From the NCBI RefSeq assembly GCF_001598795.1, contig NZ_BCZP01000020.1, positions 72,879-104,878 of the forward strand: a DNA stretch of 32,000 nucleotides, read 5' to 3'. A model generated the notes under the pieces. That model ran no database searches and was not told the origin of the DNA. It saw only the letters and a program-made list of their open reading frames with translations. Both the position numbers and the translations under genes were made by a program. The DNA comes from Delftia acidovorans NBRC 14950. Its GTDB lineage: Bacteria; Pseudomonadota; Gammaproteobacteria; Burkholderiales; Burkholderiaceae_C. Of this stretch, positions 25,803-32,000 are shown piece after piece; position 1 is the first letter of the stretch; every line of letters begins with the position of its first letter.

Positions 25803-28800
25803 ATGCACGATGCCATCACCAACCCCACGCAAGCTGCGGTGACCCCGGTGGCGCCAGCCCCCCTGGAAATACCCGATTACGAACTGCTGGAAACCTTGGG
25901 ATCGGGTGGCTACGGCACCGTCTACCGCGCGCGCCACCGGCGCACGGGTGCATCGGTGGCCATCAAGGTCGTCAGGCTGCAGGAAGGCGGCCGCCAGGTG
26001 GAGCGCTTCCACCGCGAGACCATGCTGTGCGCGTCCCTGCACCATCCGCACATCGTCCAGTTGCTGGACAAGGGCGAGCAAGGCGACTGTGTCTACGGCG
26101 TCTTCGAGTATGTGCCCGGCGAGACCCTCAAAAGCCTGATCCGCCGCCAGGGCGTGCTGACTGCCGCCGAGGCCGGCCGCCTCATGGCCGAGGTGCTCGA
26201 TGCGCTGGACTGCGCGCATGCCGCCGGTATCGTGCACCGCGACCTCAAGCCCGACAACGTGATGGTCACCTCCACGGGCGCCGTGCGTCACGCCATGGTG
26301 CTGGACTTCGGCATCGGCACCGTCATTCCCCAGTTTGCCGGCCCGCAGGTCTCGCAGCTCACCATGGGCGACGAGTGCCTGGGCACGCCGGCCTACAGCG
26401 CGCCCGAGCAGCTGCGCGGCGAGCCGCCCAGCGCCCGCACCGACCTGTATGCCTGGGGGCTGATGTTCCTCGAATGCCTGACGGGCACGCCCGCCGTGCA
26501 GGGCGCCTCGGTGGCCGAGATCGTGCACCGCCAGCTCAGCCCGCAGGAAGTGCAGCTGCCGCCCGCCATCTCCACCCACCCCATCGCCACCTTGCTGCGC
26601 AAGGCGCTCAAGAAGCGGCCTGCGGAGCGCAGCGACTCGGCGGCGGCCCTGCTCAGGGACCTCATGCGCGTGCGGCTGGACGATCTGGTGGGCCAGTTGC
26701 CCGCCGCCGCCCAGGTGCAGCAGGCGGACCTGACACGCACCGTGGCCACCACACGCGTGTTCTCCGAAGTGCGCCAGCTCACCGTGCTGTGCTGCAGCGT
26801 CTCCCTGTGGCCGGGCAGCGACATCCACGGCATGGACAGCGCGGCACGCACCGCAGGCCAGCCCTCGCAGGGGCTGAACATCGAAGACATCGAACTGCTG
26901 CAGCGCGAGGAACTCACGCTGTTCTCCGACGTTGCCACCCGGCGCGGAGGCATGCTGGCGGGCACGCTGGGCGACCGCATGCTGGTGCTCTTCGGCTACC
27001 CGCACACCAGCGACACCGATGCCCGCCAGGCCGGCATGACGGCGCAGGAGCTGCTGACGCTCAGCCGCAGCCGCGCGGCCGCCATCGAGCAGGTCCACGG
27101 ACTGCACCTCGGAATCCGCATGGGCCTGCACACCGGCATGGCCGTGGTGGTCGGCGGCGAAGCACCCTCGGGCCATGCCGTCAACGTGGCCATGCGGCTG
27201 GAGGCCATCGCCGATGCGGGCACCCTGCTGGCCAGCGAAAGCAGCCATCGCCTGCTGGCCCGCCATGCGCGCTTCGAGAAAGCCGGCAGCCTGCGCCTGC
27301 CCGGCCAGCCCACGGGCATGCAGACCTATCGCCTGGAGCTGGAGCAGCCGGCCGAGCCACTGCCAGGGCCTGTGTCCGATGCGGCCTTGCAGTGCATAGG
27401 CCGCGAACCCGAACTGCAGCGCCTGAACGACGCATGGGCGCGGGCCCGCGAAGCCGGGGGCAATGCGCTGTGGATTCGCGGCGAGCCGGGCATCGGCAAA
27501 TCCTGCCTGGCCGACATGCTGCTCGTCCACGCCAGGACACAGGGCGCGAACACCGTGGTGCTGCAATGCCAGCCCGAGCACCGCAACACCGCGCTGACCC
27601 CTTTCCTGGGCCTGATACGGCAGCGGCTGGAGGCGGCCGATCCCCCGCAGGACCACCGCGAGCAGATGCGCGAAGCCCTGCGCGCCGCAGGCTGCGATGC
27701 CGAGGCCGCCCTGCCCATTCTGTGCGCCTGGCTCTCGCTGCCCCTGGGCGACTGCGAGCCCAGCCGCATCTCGGCCGTCATGCAAAGGGCGCTGCTGCTG
27801 CAGTCCACCGCGCAATGGCTGCTGCACATGTCCGAAGCCGAGCCCTTGCTGCTGGTCGTCGAAGACGTGCACTGGGCCGACCCCACCAGCATCGAACTGC
27901 TGGAGCAACTGGTAGCGCGCCTGCCCGGGCGGCGCGTGCTGCTGGTGCTGACGGCGCGGCCGCAGTGGCAGCCGCCCGAAGGCCTGCAGGCCGAGTGCGT
28001 GGACGTGCGGCGCCTGGAAGACGCGCAGGCCACCGAGCTGGCCCGCCAGACGCTGGCGCCGCGCAGACTCAGCCCCGCCGTGATCCGCCACGTGGTGGAG
28101 CGCACCGACGGCGTGCCGCTGTTCATCCAGGAAATGGCGCGCATGCTGCTGGACGCCCACCTGGTGGAGCAGGACGGCGTCTGGGACTTTCGCCATGCCG
28201 GGCTGCCGGCCGCCATTCCGCTGACCCTGCGCGACTCGCTGGTCAGCCGCTTTGACCGCATCGGCCCTCTCAAGCCGCTGCTGCAACTGGCCGCCACCAT
28301 GGGCCGGCACTTCGACTTCGGCCTGCTGTGCGCCTGCGTGGAACGCCCGCAAGGTGAGGTCGAACAGGAACTGGCGCAACTGGGCCAGGCCGGCCTGGTC
28401 ATTGCCGATGAACGTGCGGGCGCCGGCGCCTTCATGTTCCGCCACGCGCTGATCCGCGACACGGCCTACGAATGCATGCTGGCATCGCAGCGCCGGCTGC
28501 TGCACCGCGACGTGGCCCTGGCCCTGATGCAGCACCAGCCCCAGCGCGTTGCCGCAGAACCCGCAGGCGTGGCCCAGCACTGGGCAGACGCGGGCGACCA
28601 TGCCCAGGCCGTGGCGCTTGCGGTACGGCAGTTGCGCATCACGCAGCTGCGCTCGCTCAACGATGAAACCATTGCCTACGCGCGCCACATCGACGACTGG
28701 CTGCACCAGCTCCAGGGCGTGGCCCAGCGCGAGGCGCGGCTGGACGTCAACAGCTACGTGACCCAGGCGCTGATGAACAAGCACGGCTGGGCCCATGCCC

Positions 28801-31535: not shown

Positions 31536-32000
31536 GCCCACGGCCCCGGACCTGTTCGTCCACGCCTTTCGCTGGCACGAGAAATTCCTGCCGCCCGTGC
31601 AGCAGGGCGACCGCCTCTTGCTGGCCAGCGAACGCGACACCCTGGCCCTGGGCTCTGCCGCCGTGCTGGCGCTGAACGCCCCGCTGCAGGCCGGCACCAG
31701 CCTCATGCAGCACTGCGCCGCAGCGCCCGATGCGCCGCTTGCACAGATGCTGCACGCCCTGGGCGCCCTGCTGCGCCAGGGCCTGGTCCAGCCGGTGCTG
31801 CACAGCGACTTGAACGGCCACGGTTATCTGCAACCGGATTTCTCGGCCCCGCCCGTGCGCCTGCAGGCATCGGAGCAGATCGACATCGTCATGCTGACTG
31901 CAGCGCTGGACAGCACAGCTGCCTGCCGCTGGGCTGCGGCCGTTGCCGGGGCCGTGGCCACGCAGGCACCCGCCCCCGCCCCCACCCCCGCCCCCGCCCC
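31492..32000 (+). CDS. N-terminus of a TOMM precursor leader-peptide-binding / cyclodehydratase-type protein (3'-truncated by the window edge)
   Basis: This frame is not in the supplied track because it has no stop. It is open from 31378 to 32000. ATG 31492 overlaps the methyltransferase 3' end by 44 nt; TTG 31528 with GGAG 9 nt upstream is the alternative. The translation is ..DLFVHAFRWHEKFLPPVQQGDRLLLASERDTLALGSAAVLALNAPLQAG..IDIVMLTAALDS.., ending in a QAPAPAPTPAPAP linker. It resembles the RRE-like N-terminus of TIGR03882-type proteins (from memory). Confidence 0.55.
   Translation, partial: MPSSALNSEHSLLPEPTAPDLFVHAFRWHEKFLPPVQQGDRLLLASERDTLALGSAAVLALNAPLQAGTSLMQHCAAAPDAPLAQMLHALGALLRQGLVQPVLHSDLNGHGYLQPDFSAPPVRLQASEQIDIVMLTAALDSTAACRWAAAVAGAVATQAPAPAPTPAPA

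What the first reader, a model, noticed from the sequence alone, without database searches (positions are those of the whole stretch)
25803..32000. Uncharacterised TOMM-type RiPP cluster: kinase/cyclase/NTPase fusion, fused two-domain NHLP-like precursor, carboxyl-type methyltransferase, leader-binding/cyclodehydratase
Four co-oriented, tightly packed or overlapping genes match the neighbourhood I remember from the TIGRFAMs descriptions. There, TIGR03903 (about 1350-aa kinase/cyclase fusion) occurs with a BMA_0021/BMA_0022-type precursor (TIGR03795) and a cyclodehydratase/docking fusion (TIGR03882). The listed hosts were Burkholderia, Acidovorax citrulli, Delftia and Sorangium.

To my knowledge no product, modification chemistry or role for the kinase has been established for this class.

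Three features of this locus are unusual:
- The precursor is one 261-aa fusion rather than two small genes.
- A methyltransferase is inserted between the precursor and the cyclodehydratase.
- The precursor has almost no heterocyclisable Cys.

The cluster continues beyond the window; YcaO, dehydrogenase, TfuA and exporter genes may lie downstream.
Basis: partly seen in the sequence, partly recalled or inferred. Interest (0 to 1): 0.85.

Follow-up and report, generated by a model that had tools for sequence, protein, structure and literature searches.

The report
Delftia NHLP-Burk "two-chain TOMM" cluster

Summary
The four co-oriented genes are real and the family assignments hold:
- Kinase/cyclase/NTPase fusion: TIGR03903, 1280 bits against a cutoff of 706.
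- Fused two-domain precursor: TIGR03795, 168 bits, two stretches.
- Methyltransferase: LCM-type, PF04072.
- Fourth gene: the 5' end of a LynD-like E1/YcaO heterocyclase. The window holds only about 169 codons, which match no family on their own.

The window is Delftia. Haft et al. (2010) already described this NHLP-Burk cluster, including the fused precursor in Delftia acidovorans.

None of the three "unusual" features is unusual:
- Fused precursors dominate the family.
- The methyltransferase sits between precursor and YcaO in 28 of 35 species loci, and is fused to the YcaO in Pedobacter.
- The single C-terminal Cys is the family hallmark, inside the most conserved segment (ALTSYNNTGxAYPFTC).

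Near-identical Delftia genomes show what lies downstream: the rest of the YcaO gene and a conserved FHA-domain protein. There is no dehydrogenase, TfuA, protease or exporter.

The cyclase-homology domain lacks catalytic residues in every orthologue.

Most likely mechanism (inferred): the C-terminal Thr-Cys is cyclodehydrated to an azoline, the methyltransferase adds a methyl group, and the kinase and FHA protein act as a regulatory switch.

The cluster type is already known; its product is not.

The parts
25638..25802 (+). 165-nt intergenic region upstream of the kinase gene. It is a putative promoter and 5' UTR, with GAGG 6 nt before the ATG.
   Evidence: Sequence read directly. The consensus scan found no sigma-70 match on the + strand. 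The promoter role is inferred, not tested.
25803..29891 (+). TOMM-system kinase / cyclase-homology / STAND NTPase / TPR fusion protein, 1362 aa.
   Evidence: TIGR03903 at 1279.7 bits against a cutoff of 705.75, covering aa 48-1321. The same 1362-aa gene is called in six Delftia genomes.
25878..26645 (+). Hanks-type Ser/Thr protein kinase domain (aa 26-281), predicted active.
   Evidence: PF00069 at 163.7 bits. The Gly-rich loop, the lysine of the VA[IVL]K motif, HRD[LI]KPxN, DFG and APE are conserved in all 14 orthologues aligned.
26775..27338 (+). Class III cyclase-homology domain (aa ~325-512), predicted catalytically dead.
   Evidence: PF00211 gives only 31.8 bits. The position of the first metal-binding Asp is Ser, Gly, His, Glu, Thr, Val or Cys in all 14 orthologues. 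The GD and N..R motifs are not conserved. Which residues are catalytic comes from general knowledge of class III cyclases.
27390..27947 (+). STAND-type P-loop NTPase (AAA_16, aa 530-715).
   Evidence: PF13191 at 74.2 bits, with weak NACHT and nSTAND3 hits. Walker A G(E/A)xGxGK(S/T) and, immediately downstream of Walker B, the conserved motif (H/Q)WxD are conserved across orthologues.
28935..29090 (+). TPR-like repeats inside the long helical C-terminal region (aa ~900-1340), presumed to be the sensor part.
   Evidence: Weak TPR_2 and TPR_12 hits at aa 1045-1096. TIGR03903 covers the protein through aa 1321. The sensor role is inferred from STAND architecture.
29909..30694 (+). Fused two-domain NHLP-Burk precursor, 261 aa: N-domain aa ~10-120, disordered linker ~121-145, C-domain ~146-250.
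   Evidence: TIGR03795 at 167.8 bits in two stretches. AlphaFold2 model with pLDDT 88.9 and pTM 0.86, with low confidence only at aa 1-6, in the linker (below 50 at aa 137-143) and in the last ~10 aa. In Burkholderia the two domains are separate genes.
30644..30691 (+). C-terminal tail ALTSYNNTGDAYPFTC. It carries the only Cys of the protein and is the presumed modification site.
   Evidence: Majority-residue frequency is 0.91 here against 0.57 for the whole protein in 76 homologues. Y250, N251, G254, Y257, P258 and C261 are invariant. The protein has one Cys, at residue 261.
30669..31535 (+). LCM-family (carboxyl-type) SAM-dependent methyltransferase, 288 aa from a GTG start. An alternative start at 30732 gives 267 aa.
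   Evidence: PF04072 at 45 bits against a cutoff of 22.3. It is collinear with precursor and YcaO in 28 of 35 loci and fused to the YcaO in Pedobacter caeni.
31492..32000 (+). 5' part (169 codons) of the LynD-like E1/YcaO heterocyclase gene. The window holds only the N-terminal domain and a length-variable (A/T)P linker; the catalytic part lies beyond the window.
   Evidence: The fragment has no family hit. The 741-aa orthologue in L005 has TIGR03882 at aa 190-349, YcaO at aa 391-703 and matches LynD at E = 3e-97. Linker length varies between strains.

Best explanation
**Identity (shown).** This is the Delftia member of the NHLP-Burk ('two-chain TOMM') cluster family. The window holds genes 1 to 3 and the start of gene 4 of a five-gene module: STAND Ser/Thr kinase, fused precursor, LCM methyltransferase, LynD-like E1/YcaO heterocyclase and FHA-domain protein.

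**Mechanism (inferred).**
1. The 261-aa precursor folds as two nitrile-hydratase-alpha-like domains and exposes a flexible, nearly invariant tail (..YNNTGxAYPFTC).
2. The heterocyclase binds the precursor and uses ATP to cyclodehydrate the terminal Cys, and possibly the preceding Thr/Ser. This gives a thiazoline (azoline). No dehydrogenase is present to oxidise it to a thiazole.
3. In the Comamonadaceae-type clusters the LCM methyltransferase then methylates the same substrate, most plausibly on a carboxylate.
4. The kinase fusion is a signal-sensing STAND switch with an active kinase and a dead cyclase domain. It works with the phosphothreonine-binding FHA protein, whose C-terminal domain may bind DNA, to control the system rather than to carry out the chemistry.
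5. The 'core' is invariant and no protease, exporter or immunity gene is linked. The product is therefore more likely a conserved-function molecule, either a modified protein tail or a small signal- or cofactor-like peptide, than a variable bacteriocin.
For: **Membership.** Trusted-cutoff hits; synteny in 35 genome loci plus Burkholderia; description in Haft 2010.

**Heterocyclase.** E = 3e-97 to LynD, 7e-95 to TruD and 3e-89 to MusD across the E1-like and YcaO domains, with the ELVERD ATP/Mg region intact.

**Substrate site.** One Cys, at the C-terminus. The last 16 aa are the most conserved segment and lie in a lower-confidence tail of an otherwise confident fold.

**Methyltransferase acts on the same substrate.** The gene order precursor-MT-YcaO is conserved, and Pedobacter has a 996-aa MT-YcaO fusion next to its precursor.

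**Kinase and FHA protein are regulatory.**
- Pedobacter keeps MT-YcaO and the precursor without kinase or FHA, and has AraC-family genes there instead.
- The kinase has a STAND plus TPR architecture.
- The FHA residues GR, SxxH and NG are invariant.
- The FHA family is about the same size as the precursor family: 105 against 102 clusters.
- The model of the FHA protein's C-terminal domain has a sheet, three-helix, hairpin topology.

**No dehydrogenase, TfuA, protease or exporter** within ~9 kb in six strains.
Against: - There are no chemical data for any member of the family.
- The catalytic YcaO part is not in the window.
- The kinase gene lies 17 nt from the precursor gene in one operon in all proteobacterial loci, which would also fit a direct enzymatic role.
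- The methyltransferase's substrate atom is unknown. The pattern 'MT present means the precursor ends exactly at Cys' holds in Betaproteobacteria but fails in SAR324 (FTCN) and Pedobacter (LTCP), and it is phylogenetically confounded.
- DNA binding by the FHA protein is not established: hhalign against OmpR-type domains gave E = 0.049 and probability 1%, HMMER against the PDB gave nothing, and only weak winged-helix hits appeared in BFVD.
- Sorangium and Polyangiaceae loci have the kinase but no FHA gene nearby.
Confidence: 0.55

Rival explanations
1. The kinase is a biosynthetic enzyme. It phosphorylates a conserved Thr of the precursor tail (T253 in NNTG, or T/S260 before the Cys). This would prime a later step such as elimination, as in class III/IV lanthipeptide synthetases, or create a docking site for the FHA protein, which would then act as a scaffold or chaperone rather than a regulator.
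For: - The kinase and precursor genes are adjacent and probably co-translated in all proteobacterial loci.
- T253 is nearly invariant, and position 260 is Thr in nearly all aligned members and Ser in a few.
- FHA domains are specific for phospho-Thr, and the binding residues are intact.
- The kinase domain shows generic similarity to the LanL and LanKC kinase domains.
Against: - There is no lyase domain or gene.
- Pedobacter has the precursor and MT-YcaO without any kinase or FHA gene within 10 kb.
- A 1362-aa STAND/TPR architecture is typical of signalling switches, not tailoring enzymes.
- Similarity to the Lan kinases is confined to the generic kinase fold, at 58-92 bits against cutoffs of 575-650.
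Confidence: 0.2
2. This is a classical secreted TOMM bacteriocin or microcin. The two-domain region is a very long leader that is cleaved off, for example after the conserved NNTG. A short azoline peptide is then exported by an unlinked transporter and kills competitors.
For: - Named this way by TIGRFAMs and NCBIfam ('TOMM bacteriocin').
- Homology to NHLP leaders, whose cleavage motif aligns near this position (Haft 2010, Table 3).
- A LynD-type heterocyclase normally acts on leader-containing peptides.
Against: - The presumed core is the most conserved segment across phyla (0.91 against 0.57), the opposite of the hypervariable cores reported for related NHLP and cyanobactin precursors.
- No protease, ABC exporter or immunity gene lies within ~9 kb in six strains. 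Haft 2010 also found no matching transporters in these species.
- The 'leader' is a confidently folded two-domain protein.
Confidence: 0.2
3. The STAND kinase is a defence- or stress-type sensor of the Avs or MalT kind, and the modified NHLP-Burk protein is its effector or toxin. The module would then be a conflict system rather than a natural-product pathway.
For: - STAND NTPase with a TPR region and N-terminal effector-like domains.
- The cluster sits on a plasmid beside an IS5 element in Burkholderia sp. MSMB0856.
- Neighbouring genes vary between Delftia strains.
Against: - PADLOC gives only generic kinase-domain hits (PD-T4-6, Mad6) and nothing for the other five proteins.
- The cluster sits at a syntenic chromosomal site in many Delftia genomes, not in a recognisable defence island.
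Confidence: 0.05

Closest known systems
NHLP-Burk / 'two-chain TOMM' clusters of Burkholderia, Acidovorax and Delftia (Haft, Basu & Mitchell 2010, PMC2887384; Cox et al. 2015, PMC4603692)
   Same: The same three signature families are present: the TIGR03903 kinase, the TIGR03795 precursor and a fused TIGR03882/YcaO protein. The fused precursor was reported for D. acidovorans itself, along with the C-terminal Cys and the lack of linked transporters.
   Different: Nothing essential differs. The Burkholderia version has split precursor genes, the FHA gene upstream and no methyltransferase. The passages of those two papers that I retrieved by term search do not mention the conserved FHA partner, the conserved methyltransferase or the degenerate cyclase domain.
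Cyanobactin heterocyclases LynD, TruD, PatD and MusD (fused E1-like + YcaO)
   Same: The orthologue of gene 4 aligns with LynD over aa 136-737 at E = 3e-97, with the same domain order. Cox 2015 also groups the NHLP-Burk D proteins with those of the cyanobactins.
   Different: Cyanobactin substrates are multi-core peptides with PatA/G protease sites and variable cores. Here the substrate is a 261-aa folded protein with one invariant terminal Cys, and no PatA/G-like protease is present. The N-terminal ~135 aa, which is the part inside the window, has no detectable similarity to LynD domain 1.
NHLP-type (TIGR03793) precursors, including the proteusins
   Same: The leader is related to nitrile hydratase alpha and shares the conserved IA(K/R)(A/S)W.D..F motif.
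   Different: TIGR03793 is not matched. There is no Gly-Gly cleavage motif and no C39-peptidase transporter. The domain is duplicated and the 'core' is invariant rather than variable.
Mycobacterial Ser/Thr kinase and FHA regulator pairs (PknH-EmbR, PknB-GarA) and the STAND kinase PknK
   Same: A Hanks kinase with conserved activation-loop Thr residues is paired with a partner that has an intact FHA domain. EmbR and GarA are among the structural matches of the FHA domain. The comparison with how these pairs work rests on general knowledge.
   Different: The partner's C-terminal domain is not demonstrably an OmpR-type or BTAD domain. The kinase also carries a dead cyclase domain and a STAND NTPase. 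No target promoter is known.
LCM family carboxyl methyltransferases (LCMT1/PPM1 acting on the PP2A C-terminal Leu; TcmP)
   Same: PF04072 is matched above its threshold. The SAM-binding motifs LGAG..TR, VDLP and EGV..YL can be read in the sequence. The family's characterised members methylate carboxylates (general knowledge).
   Different: The best PDB sequence match is above E = 0.01. The TIGR00027 subfamily cutoff is not reached. The subfamily is confined to these clusters' taxa. The substrate is unknown.
YcaO enzymes that modify proteins (McrA thioglycine YcaO-TfuA; E. coli YcaO with ribosomal protein S12)
   Same: These are precedents for a YcaO acting on a folded protein rather than a short peptide (general knowledge). 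Weak hits to both models were seen.
   Different: Those enzymes lack the E1-like partner domain and carry out thioamidation or assist methylthiolation. No TfuA is present here, and similarity is far higher to azoline-forming LynD.

Membership tests
NHLP-Burk / two-chain TOMM cluster (Haft 2010) | Precursor matching TIGR03795 above the trusted cutoff, with two NHLP-Burk domains (tandem genes or one fused gene) | tested here: met
   167.8 bits against a cutoff of 41, in two stretches. The model shows two folded domains.
NHLP-Burk / two-chain TOMM cluster (Haft 2010) | Adjacent ~1350-aa Ser/Thr kinase fusion protein (TIGR03903) | tested here: met
   1279.7 bits against a cutoff of 705.75. The gene ends 17 nt upstream of the precursor gene.
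NHLP-Burk / two-chain TOMM cluster (Haft 2010) | Adjacent fused cyclodehydratase/docking protein (TIGR03882 + YcaO) | tested here: met
   Only the first 169 codons are in the window, with no hit. In genomes 98.7% identical at the DNA level, the same gene has TIGR03882 at 92.9 bits (cutoff 36.9) and PF02624 at 270 bits.
NHLP-Burk / two-chain TOMM cluster (Haft 2010) | Cys or Cys-Cys at or near the C-terminus of the second domain | tested here: met
   The protein ends ..YPFTC. C261 is invariant in 76 homologues.
Azol(in)e-forming RiPP (TOMM / LAP type) | ATP-dependent YcaO with an E1-like partner domain, homologous to characterised heterocyclases | tested here: met
   LynD at E = 3e-97 and TruD at 7e-95. 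The SagD-type model TIGR03604 scores just below its cutoff, 207.8 against 219.25.
Azol(in)e-forming RiPP (TOMM / LAP type) | FMN-dependent dehydrogenase (McbC/SagB type) to give azoles | tested here: not met
   None among the called genes within ~10 kb on either side in six Delftia genomes. The rest of the genome was not searched.
Azol(in)e-forming RiPP (TOMM / LAP type) | Leader protease and/or dedicated exporter or immunity gene | tested here: not met
   None in the neighbourhood. Haft 2010 reached the same conclusion.
Azol(in)e-forming RiPP (TOMM / LAP type) | Heterocycle demonstrated chemically in the product | not testable with these tools
   This needs mass spectrometry or NMR. No report was found in the searchable literature.
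Class III adenylyl/guanylyl cyclase | Two metal-binding Asp, a substrate-defining Lys/Asp pair, and the transition-state Asn and Arg | tested here: not met
   The first Asp is replaced in all 14 orthologues. The GD and N..R motifs are variable. The Pfam score is only 31.8 bits. The domain is homologous to cyclases but should not be called a cyclase.
Hanks-type Ser/Thr protein kinase | Gly-rich loop, VAIK Lys, HRD..N catalytic loop, DFG, APE | tested here: met
   All are invariant in 14 orthologues. PF00069 scores 163.7 bits.
STAND NTPase | P-loop NTPase of the AAA_16/NACHT type followed by a repeat (TPR) sensor region | tested here: met
   PF13191 at 74.2 bits; Walker A and B conserved; the TPR hits are weak.
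LCM carboxyl methyltransferase (PF04072) | Pfam gathering threshold reached and SAM-binding motifs present | tested here: met
   45 bits against a cutoff of 22.3. The motifs can be read in the sequence.
LCM carboxyl methyltransferase (PF04072) | Methylation of a carboxylate on the cognate substrate | not testable with these tools
   Only contextual evidence is available: conserved gene order and the MT-YcaO fusion in Pedobacter.
FHA / OmpR-type winged-helix regulator (EmbR-like), for the fifth gene outside the window | FHA domain with phospho-Thr-binding residues | tested here: met
   PF00498 at 48 bits. G22-R23, S38..H41 and N59-G60 are invariant in the 13 cluster-linked orthologues. Foldseek matches FHA structures at E ~1e-6.
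FHA / OmpR-type winged-helix regulator (EmbR-like), for the fifth gene outside the window | Winged-helix DNA-binding domain | tested here: inconclusive
   The AlphaFold2 topology fits. However, hhalign gave E = 0.049 and probability 1%, there was no PDB sequence hit, and BFVD gave only weak winged-helix-type hits at E ~0.5.

The most novel reading that the evidence does not exclude
The module may not be a bacteriocin pathway at all. It may be an intracellular modification and signalling device. In this reading, a folded two-domain nitrile-hydratase-like protein receives a C-terminal azoline (plus a methyl group in Comamonadaceae). This invariant modified tail, either still on the protein or released as a short peptide, is the ligand or output of a STAND Ser/Thr kinase that signals through a dedicated FHA transcription factor. 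It would be the first azoline-forming YcaO acting on a protein-like substrate with a conserved physiological role rather than an antibiotic one.
Probability: 0.25. Interest if true: 0.7.

Novelty: already known. Interest (0 to 1): 0.33.

Why it matters
The NHLP-Burk clusters have been annotated as 'TOMM bacteriocins' for fifteen years without a product, a chemistry or a role for the giant kinase. They occur in Burkholderia pathogens, in the plant pathogens Paracidovorax, and in common soil and water Comamonadaceae.

This window adds no new kind of system. The comparative picture assembled here does sharpen the questions an experiment should ask:
- The target is almost certainly the invariant ..YPF(T/S)C tail of a folded protein.
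- The methyltransferase works with the heterocyclase; the two are fused in Pedobacter.
- A conserved FHA protein belongs to the module.
- The cyclase domain is dead.
- The absence of variable cores, exporters and immunity genes argues against the bacteriocin label.

A simple co-expression and mass-spectrometry experiment could settle the chemistry.

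Tried and rejected
- **C-terminal YPF as a relic of the NHase CSCYPW metal site.** I considered this and rejected it. The profile alignment places the NHase strand/PxxP region, which lies after the metal site in NHase, before the tail. 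The metal-site segment is therefore simply absent (plus reading of the sequence).
- **Winged-helix test of the FHA partner.** The results:
  - Pfam at E <= 5 gave nothing relevant.
  - The PDB profile search found only FHA hits.
  - A profile of the C-terminal domain alone found nothing.
  - tblastn for OmpR-type domains in the fetched loci found none.
  - hhalign against PhoB gave E = 0.21.
  - hhalign against seven real OmpR-type domains gave E = 0.049.
  - The Foldseek PDB list was filled by FHA domains.
  - BFVD gave weak RepA- and MarR-like hits.
  Verdict: inconclusive.
- **Methyltransferase and the terminal Cys carboxylate.** I tested the idea through the correlation 'MT present means the protein ends at Cys'. 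It holds in Betaproteobacteria but is broken by SAR324 L037 and Pedobacter L041. Most distant family members carry 1-3 residues after the Cys. I kept the idea only as a weak inference.
- **Defence-system membership.** PADLOC gave only generic kinase hits.
- **LMW-PTP-like gene upstream of the kinase as a partner phosphatase.** It is present or absent among Delftia strains and absent in other genera, so it is not part of the module.
- **Promoter motifs or repeats upstream of the kinase.** Nothing convincing was found.
- **Literature.** Seven searches found no functional study. One of them was poorly targeted and uninformative.

Full report

Yes. The ORF listing shows four + strand ORFs from 25.7 kb to the window end. 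Translations were read.
- The first gene is best started at ATG 25803 (1362 aa), the start called in six near-identical genomes.
- The precursor gene is 29909-30694 (261 aa).
- The methyltransferase gene is 30669-31535 (288 aa from GTG). Some annotations use a start at 30732 instead.
- A fourth ORF starts at ATG 31492 and runs off the window.

Spacing between the genes is a 17-nt gap, a 26-nt overlap and a 44-nt overlap. No + strand terminator-like site lies within the block.

Family scores:
- NCBIfam gives TIGR03903 at 1279.7 bits (cutoff 705.75) and TIGR03795 at 167.8 bits (cutoff 41) in two stretches.
- Pfam gives Pkinase, Guanylate_cyc (weak) and AAA_16 with weak TPR hits for gene 1, and LCM PF04072 (45 bits, cutoff 22.3) for gene 3.

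The 164-169 residues of gene 4 that lie in the window match nothing.

**2. Source and the missing downstream part.**

The exact precursor sequence occurs on many contigs. The window is 98.4-98.7% identical in DNA to six of them. It is 98% identical in the precursor protein to Delftia tsuruhatensis NBRC 16741 and D. acidovorans MMO-42.

I used locus L005 as a proxy for the downstream sequence (window coordinate = L005 coordinate + 19908).
- Gene 4 is a 741-aa protein. It has the TOMM leader-binding/E1-like domain TIGR03882 at aa 190-349 (92.9 bits, cutoff 36.9) and a YcaO domain at aa 391-703 (270 bits).
- It is a clear homologue of the structurally characterised cyanobactin heterocyclases: LynD (E = 3e-97), TruD (7e-95) and MusD (3e-89), from about aa 136 to the C-terminus.
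- The window therefore contains only its N-terminal domain and a Pro/Ala linker whose length differs between strains.

Downstream follow a 314-aa FHA-domain protein, a 111-aa protein with no family, and a GFA-family gene. After that the gene content differs from strain to strain. No dehydrogenase, TfuA, protease or transporter is called within about 9 kb in any of the six genomes.

**3. Comparative genomics.**

A pattern scan of one genome per species returned 35 loci. tblastn with the Delftia proteins gave the following.
- **Collinear kinase, precursor, methyltransferase, YcaO, FHA:** Delftia, Comamonas, Variovorax, Xylophilus, Curvibacter, Acidovorax/Paracidovorax (including P. citrulli), Rivihabitans and Aquabacterium.
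- **No methyltransferase:** Curvibacter sp. CHRR-16, Entotheonella, one of two SAR324 clusters, a Polyangiaceae MAG and Sorangium.
- **Burkholderia** (a plasmid of strain MSMB0856 and a B. cenocepacia replicon): FHA, kinase, precursor 1 (114 aa, no terminal Cys), precursor 2 (120 aa, ending ..LFTCC) and YcaO, without a methyltransferase.
- **Pedobacter caeni:** no kinase or FHA gene. It has one 996-aa ORF in which the LCM methyltransferase is fused to the E1/YcaO heterocyclase, directly upstream of a 306-aa precursor homologue, with AraC-type regulator genes next door.

The conserved biosynthetic core is therefore precursor plus YcaO. The methyltransferase is a frequent partner that is physically fused to the YcaO in one lineage. 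The kinase and FHA genes travel with the core in proteobacteria and SAR324 but can be dispensed with.

**4. The precursor.**

A search of 5.8 billion proteins found 102 clusters, almost all 240-310 aa, from Delftia, Variovorax, Paracidovorax, Curvibacter, Aquabacterium and Entotheonella. A profile search of 1.84 billion representatives found 505 members at E <= 0.001. Nearly all of the best 150 are two-domain proteins of 240-360 aa. The fused form is therefore the common form.

Alignments of 19 and 76 members show conservation along the whole protein. The maximum is at the C-terminus. Majority-residue frequency is 0.91 for the last 16 residues (ALTSYNNTGDAYPFTC), 0.57 overall and 0.43 for the inter-domain linker. 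Y250, N251, G254, Y257, P258 and C261 are invariant. The protein has a single Cys, its last residue.

AlphaFold2 with this alignment gives a confident model (pLDDT 88.9, pTM 0.86). It has two helix-plus-sheet domains (aa ~10-120 and ~145-250), a disordered linker and a less confident tail. The fold has no close solved relative. Nitrile hydratase alpha appears only weakly.

This is not the usual RiPP picture of a conserved leader and a variable core. It is a folded protein presenting an invariant tail.

**5. The kinase fusion.**

In an alignment of 14 orthologues from Delftia to Sorangium, SAR324 and Burkholderia:
- All Hanks-kinase catalytic motifs are conserved, as are the Walker A motif and, just downstream of Walker B, the (H/Q)WxD motif of the STAND NTPase.
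- The cyclase-homology domain has no Asp at the first metal-binding position in any orthologue, and its GD and Asn/Arg motifs drift.

By the standard catalytic signature of class III cyclases (general knowledge), this is a pseudo-cyclase. PADLOC gives only generic kinase hits, so there is no evidence for membership in a known defence system.

**6. The FHA partner (outside the window).**

The family has 105 clusters at 90% identity, about the same number and the same taxa as the precursor family. The canonical phospho-Thr-binding residues (GR, SxxH, NG) are invariant in the 13 cluster-linked orthologues, and the C-terminal ~125 residues are strongly conserved.

AlphaFold2 (pLDDT 91.4) predicts an FHA domain, a small beta domain and a C-terminal module. 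The module consists of a three-stranded sheet, three helices and a beta-hairpin, the topology of OmpR/PhoB-type winged helices.

I could not confirm that assignment:
- HMMER against PDB sequences found only FHA matches.
- hhalign against seven real OmpR-type domains aligned the recognition helix and wing in the expected register, but with E = 0.049 and probability 1%.
- Foldseek lists were dominated by FHA domains. In the viral library they gave only weak winged-helix-type hits.

**7. How it most likely works.**

*Shown by computation:* the gene set, its conservation, the homology of the enzymes, the fold and conservation pattern of the substrate, the intact kinase and the degenerate cyclase.

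*Inferred:*
- The LynD-like enzyme cyclodehydrates the terminal Cys, and perhaps the adjacent Thr/Ser, of the exposed tail to an azoline. Without a dehydrogenase it stays at the azoline level.
- The LCM-type enzyme methylates the same substrate. A carboxylate is the family's usual target. The simple idea that it esterifies the alpha-carboxylate of a terminal Cys is only weakly supported, because two methyltransferase-containing clusters have one residue after the Cys.
- The STAND kinase and the FHA protein form a regulatory switch analogous to mycobacterial kinase/FHA-regulator pairs.

A direct biosynthetic role for the kinase (phosphorylation of T253 or T260) remains a serious rival, because the kinase gene is tightly coupled to the precursor gene.

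The invariant tail, together with the lack of protease, exporter and immunity genes, argues against a classical variable bacteriocin. This agrees with Haft et al., who noted that export, 'if any, must differ'.

**8. Comparison with what is known.**

Haft, Basu and Mitchell (2010) defined TIGR03795 (NHLP-Burk). They listed Delftia acidovorans SPH-1, Acidovorax avenae and Burkholderia, noted the large Ser/Thr kinase, and stated that the tandem pairs are fused in D. acidovorans and A. avenae. Cox et al. (2015) repeated this.

Full-text searches for the family names, model accessions and locus tags found no experimental characterisation. The only related item is a 2025 proteomics table in which the B. 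thailandensis two-chain TOMM protein BTH_I0516 rises in stationary phase.

The finding is therefore an already known, still orphan cluster type. Its expected downstream genes are absent.

**9. Verdict.**

Novelty: already known.

Interest is modest at 0.33. It rests on the open question of what this widespread module makes and why it carries a giant kinase. The comparative results here make that question easier to test: the conserved FHA partner, the MT-YcaO fusion, the dead cyclase domain and the invariant tail on a folded protein.

Noticed in passing
L041:6987-9977 (Pedobacter caeni DSM 16990): One 996-aa ORF fuses the LCM methyltransferase (aa 63-187) to the E1/YcaO heterocyclase (YcaO at aa 647-958). 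It lies directly upstream of a 306-aa NHLP-Burk homologue ending ..YPLTCP. Two AraC-family genes lie upstream, and no kinase or FHA gene lies within 10 kb.
   Followed up: yes
L005:13929-14873 (about 1.9 kb beyond the window end): A conserved 314-aa FHA-domain protein accompanies the cluster in Betaproteobacteria and SAR324; in Burkholderia and SAR324 its gene lies upstream of the kinase. Its C-terminal domain matches no family but has a predicted winged-helix-like topology.
   Followed up: yes
window 25290-25637 (+): A 115-aa low-molecular-weight phosphatase-like gene with a CX5R(S) motif (CSRNQWRS) sits just upstream of the kinase gene. It is present in some Delftia strains and absent in others (L003, L007) and in other genera.
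   Followed up: partly
window 24713-25252 (+) and 24198-24602 (-): A DUF6886 gene that is variable between strains, and a GFA-family gene. A second GFA gene lies downstream of the cluster (L005:15502-15909), so GFA paralogues flank the module in Delftia.
   Followed up: no
window ~31960-32000; L001-L008 ~11990-12030: An (A/T)P repeat linker lies between the N-terminal domain and the LynD-homologous part of the heterocyclase. Its length varies between strains (proteins of 736-743 aa). The window's copy is the longest seen and continues past the window end.
   Followed up: partly
L005:15073-15408: A 111-aa protein with no family hit is conserved downstream of the FHA gene in Delftia, Comamonas, Variovorax, Curvibacter and Paracidovorax, at varying distances. 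It is a possible sixth component.
   Followed up: partly
L037 and L038 (SAR324 contig JANQJU010000064.1, 54 kb apart): Two paralogous clusters sit on one contig. One has FHA, kinase, precursor and methyltransferase without a YcaO. The other has FHA, kinase, two fused precursors and a YcaO without a methyltransferase.
   Followed up: partly
L042 (Burkholderia sp. MSMB0856 plasmid pMSMB0856, 249 kb): The Burkholderia-type cluster is plasmid-borne, with its FHA gene starting about 450 bp downstream of an IS5 transposase gene (one small hypothetical gene lies between them). This suggests horizontal mobility of the module.
   Followed up: no
L011:15693-16268 (Variovorax paradoxus): A 191-aa ORF with a phage tail collar domain lies between the FHA gene and the 111-aa gene.
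   Followed up: no
window 2910-4616, 7393-9039, 10012-13884 (+): A sigma-54-dependent response regulator, a full-length sigma-54 (RpoN-type) gene and a 1290-aa hybrid histidine kinase with duplicated receiver and HATPase domains lie close together upstream. They appear unrelated to the cluster.
   Followed up: no
window 8-1369 and 1407-2852 (+): The 3' part of a large-subunit catalase gene, followed by a bacterial type IB topoisomerase gene.
   Followed up: no
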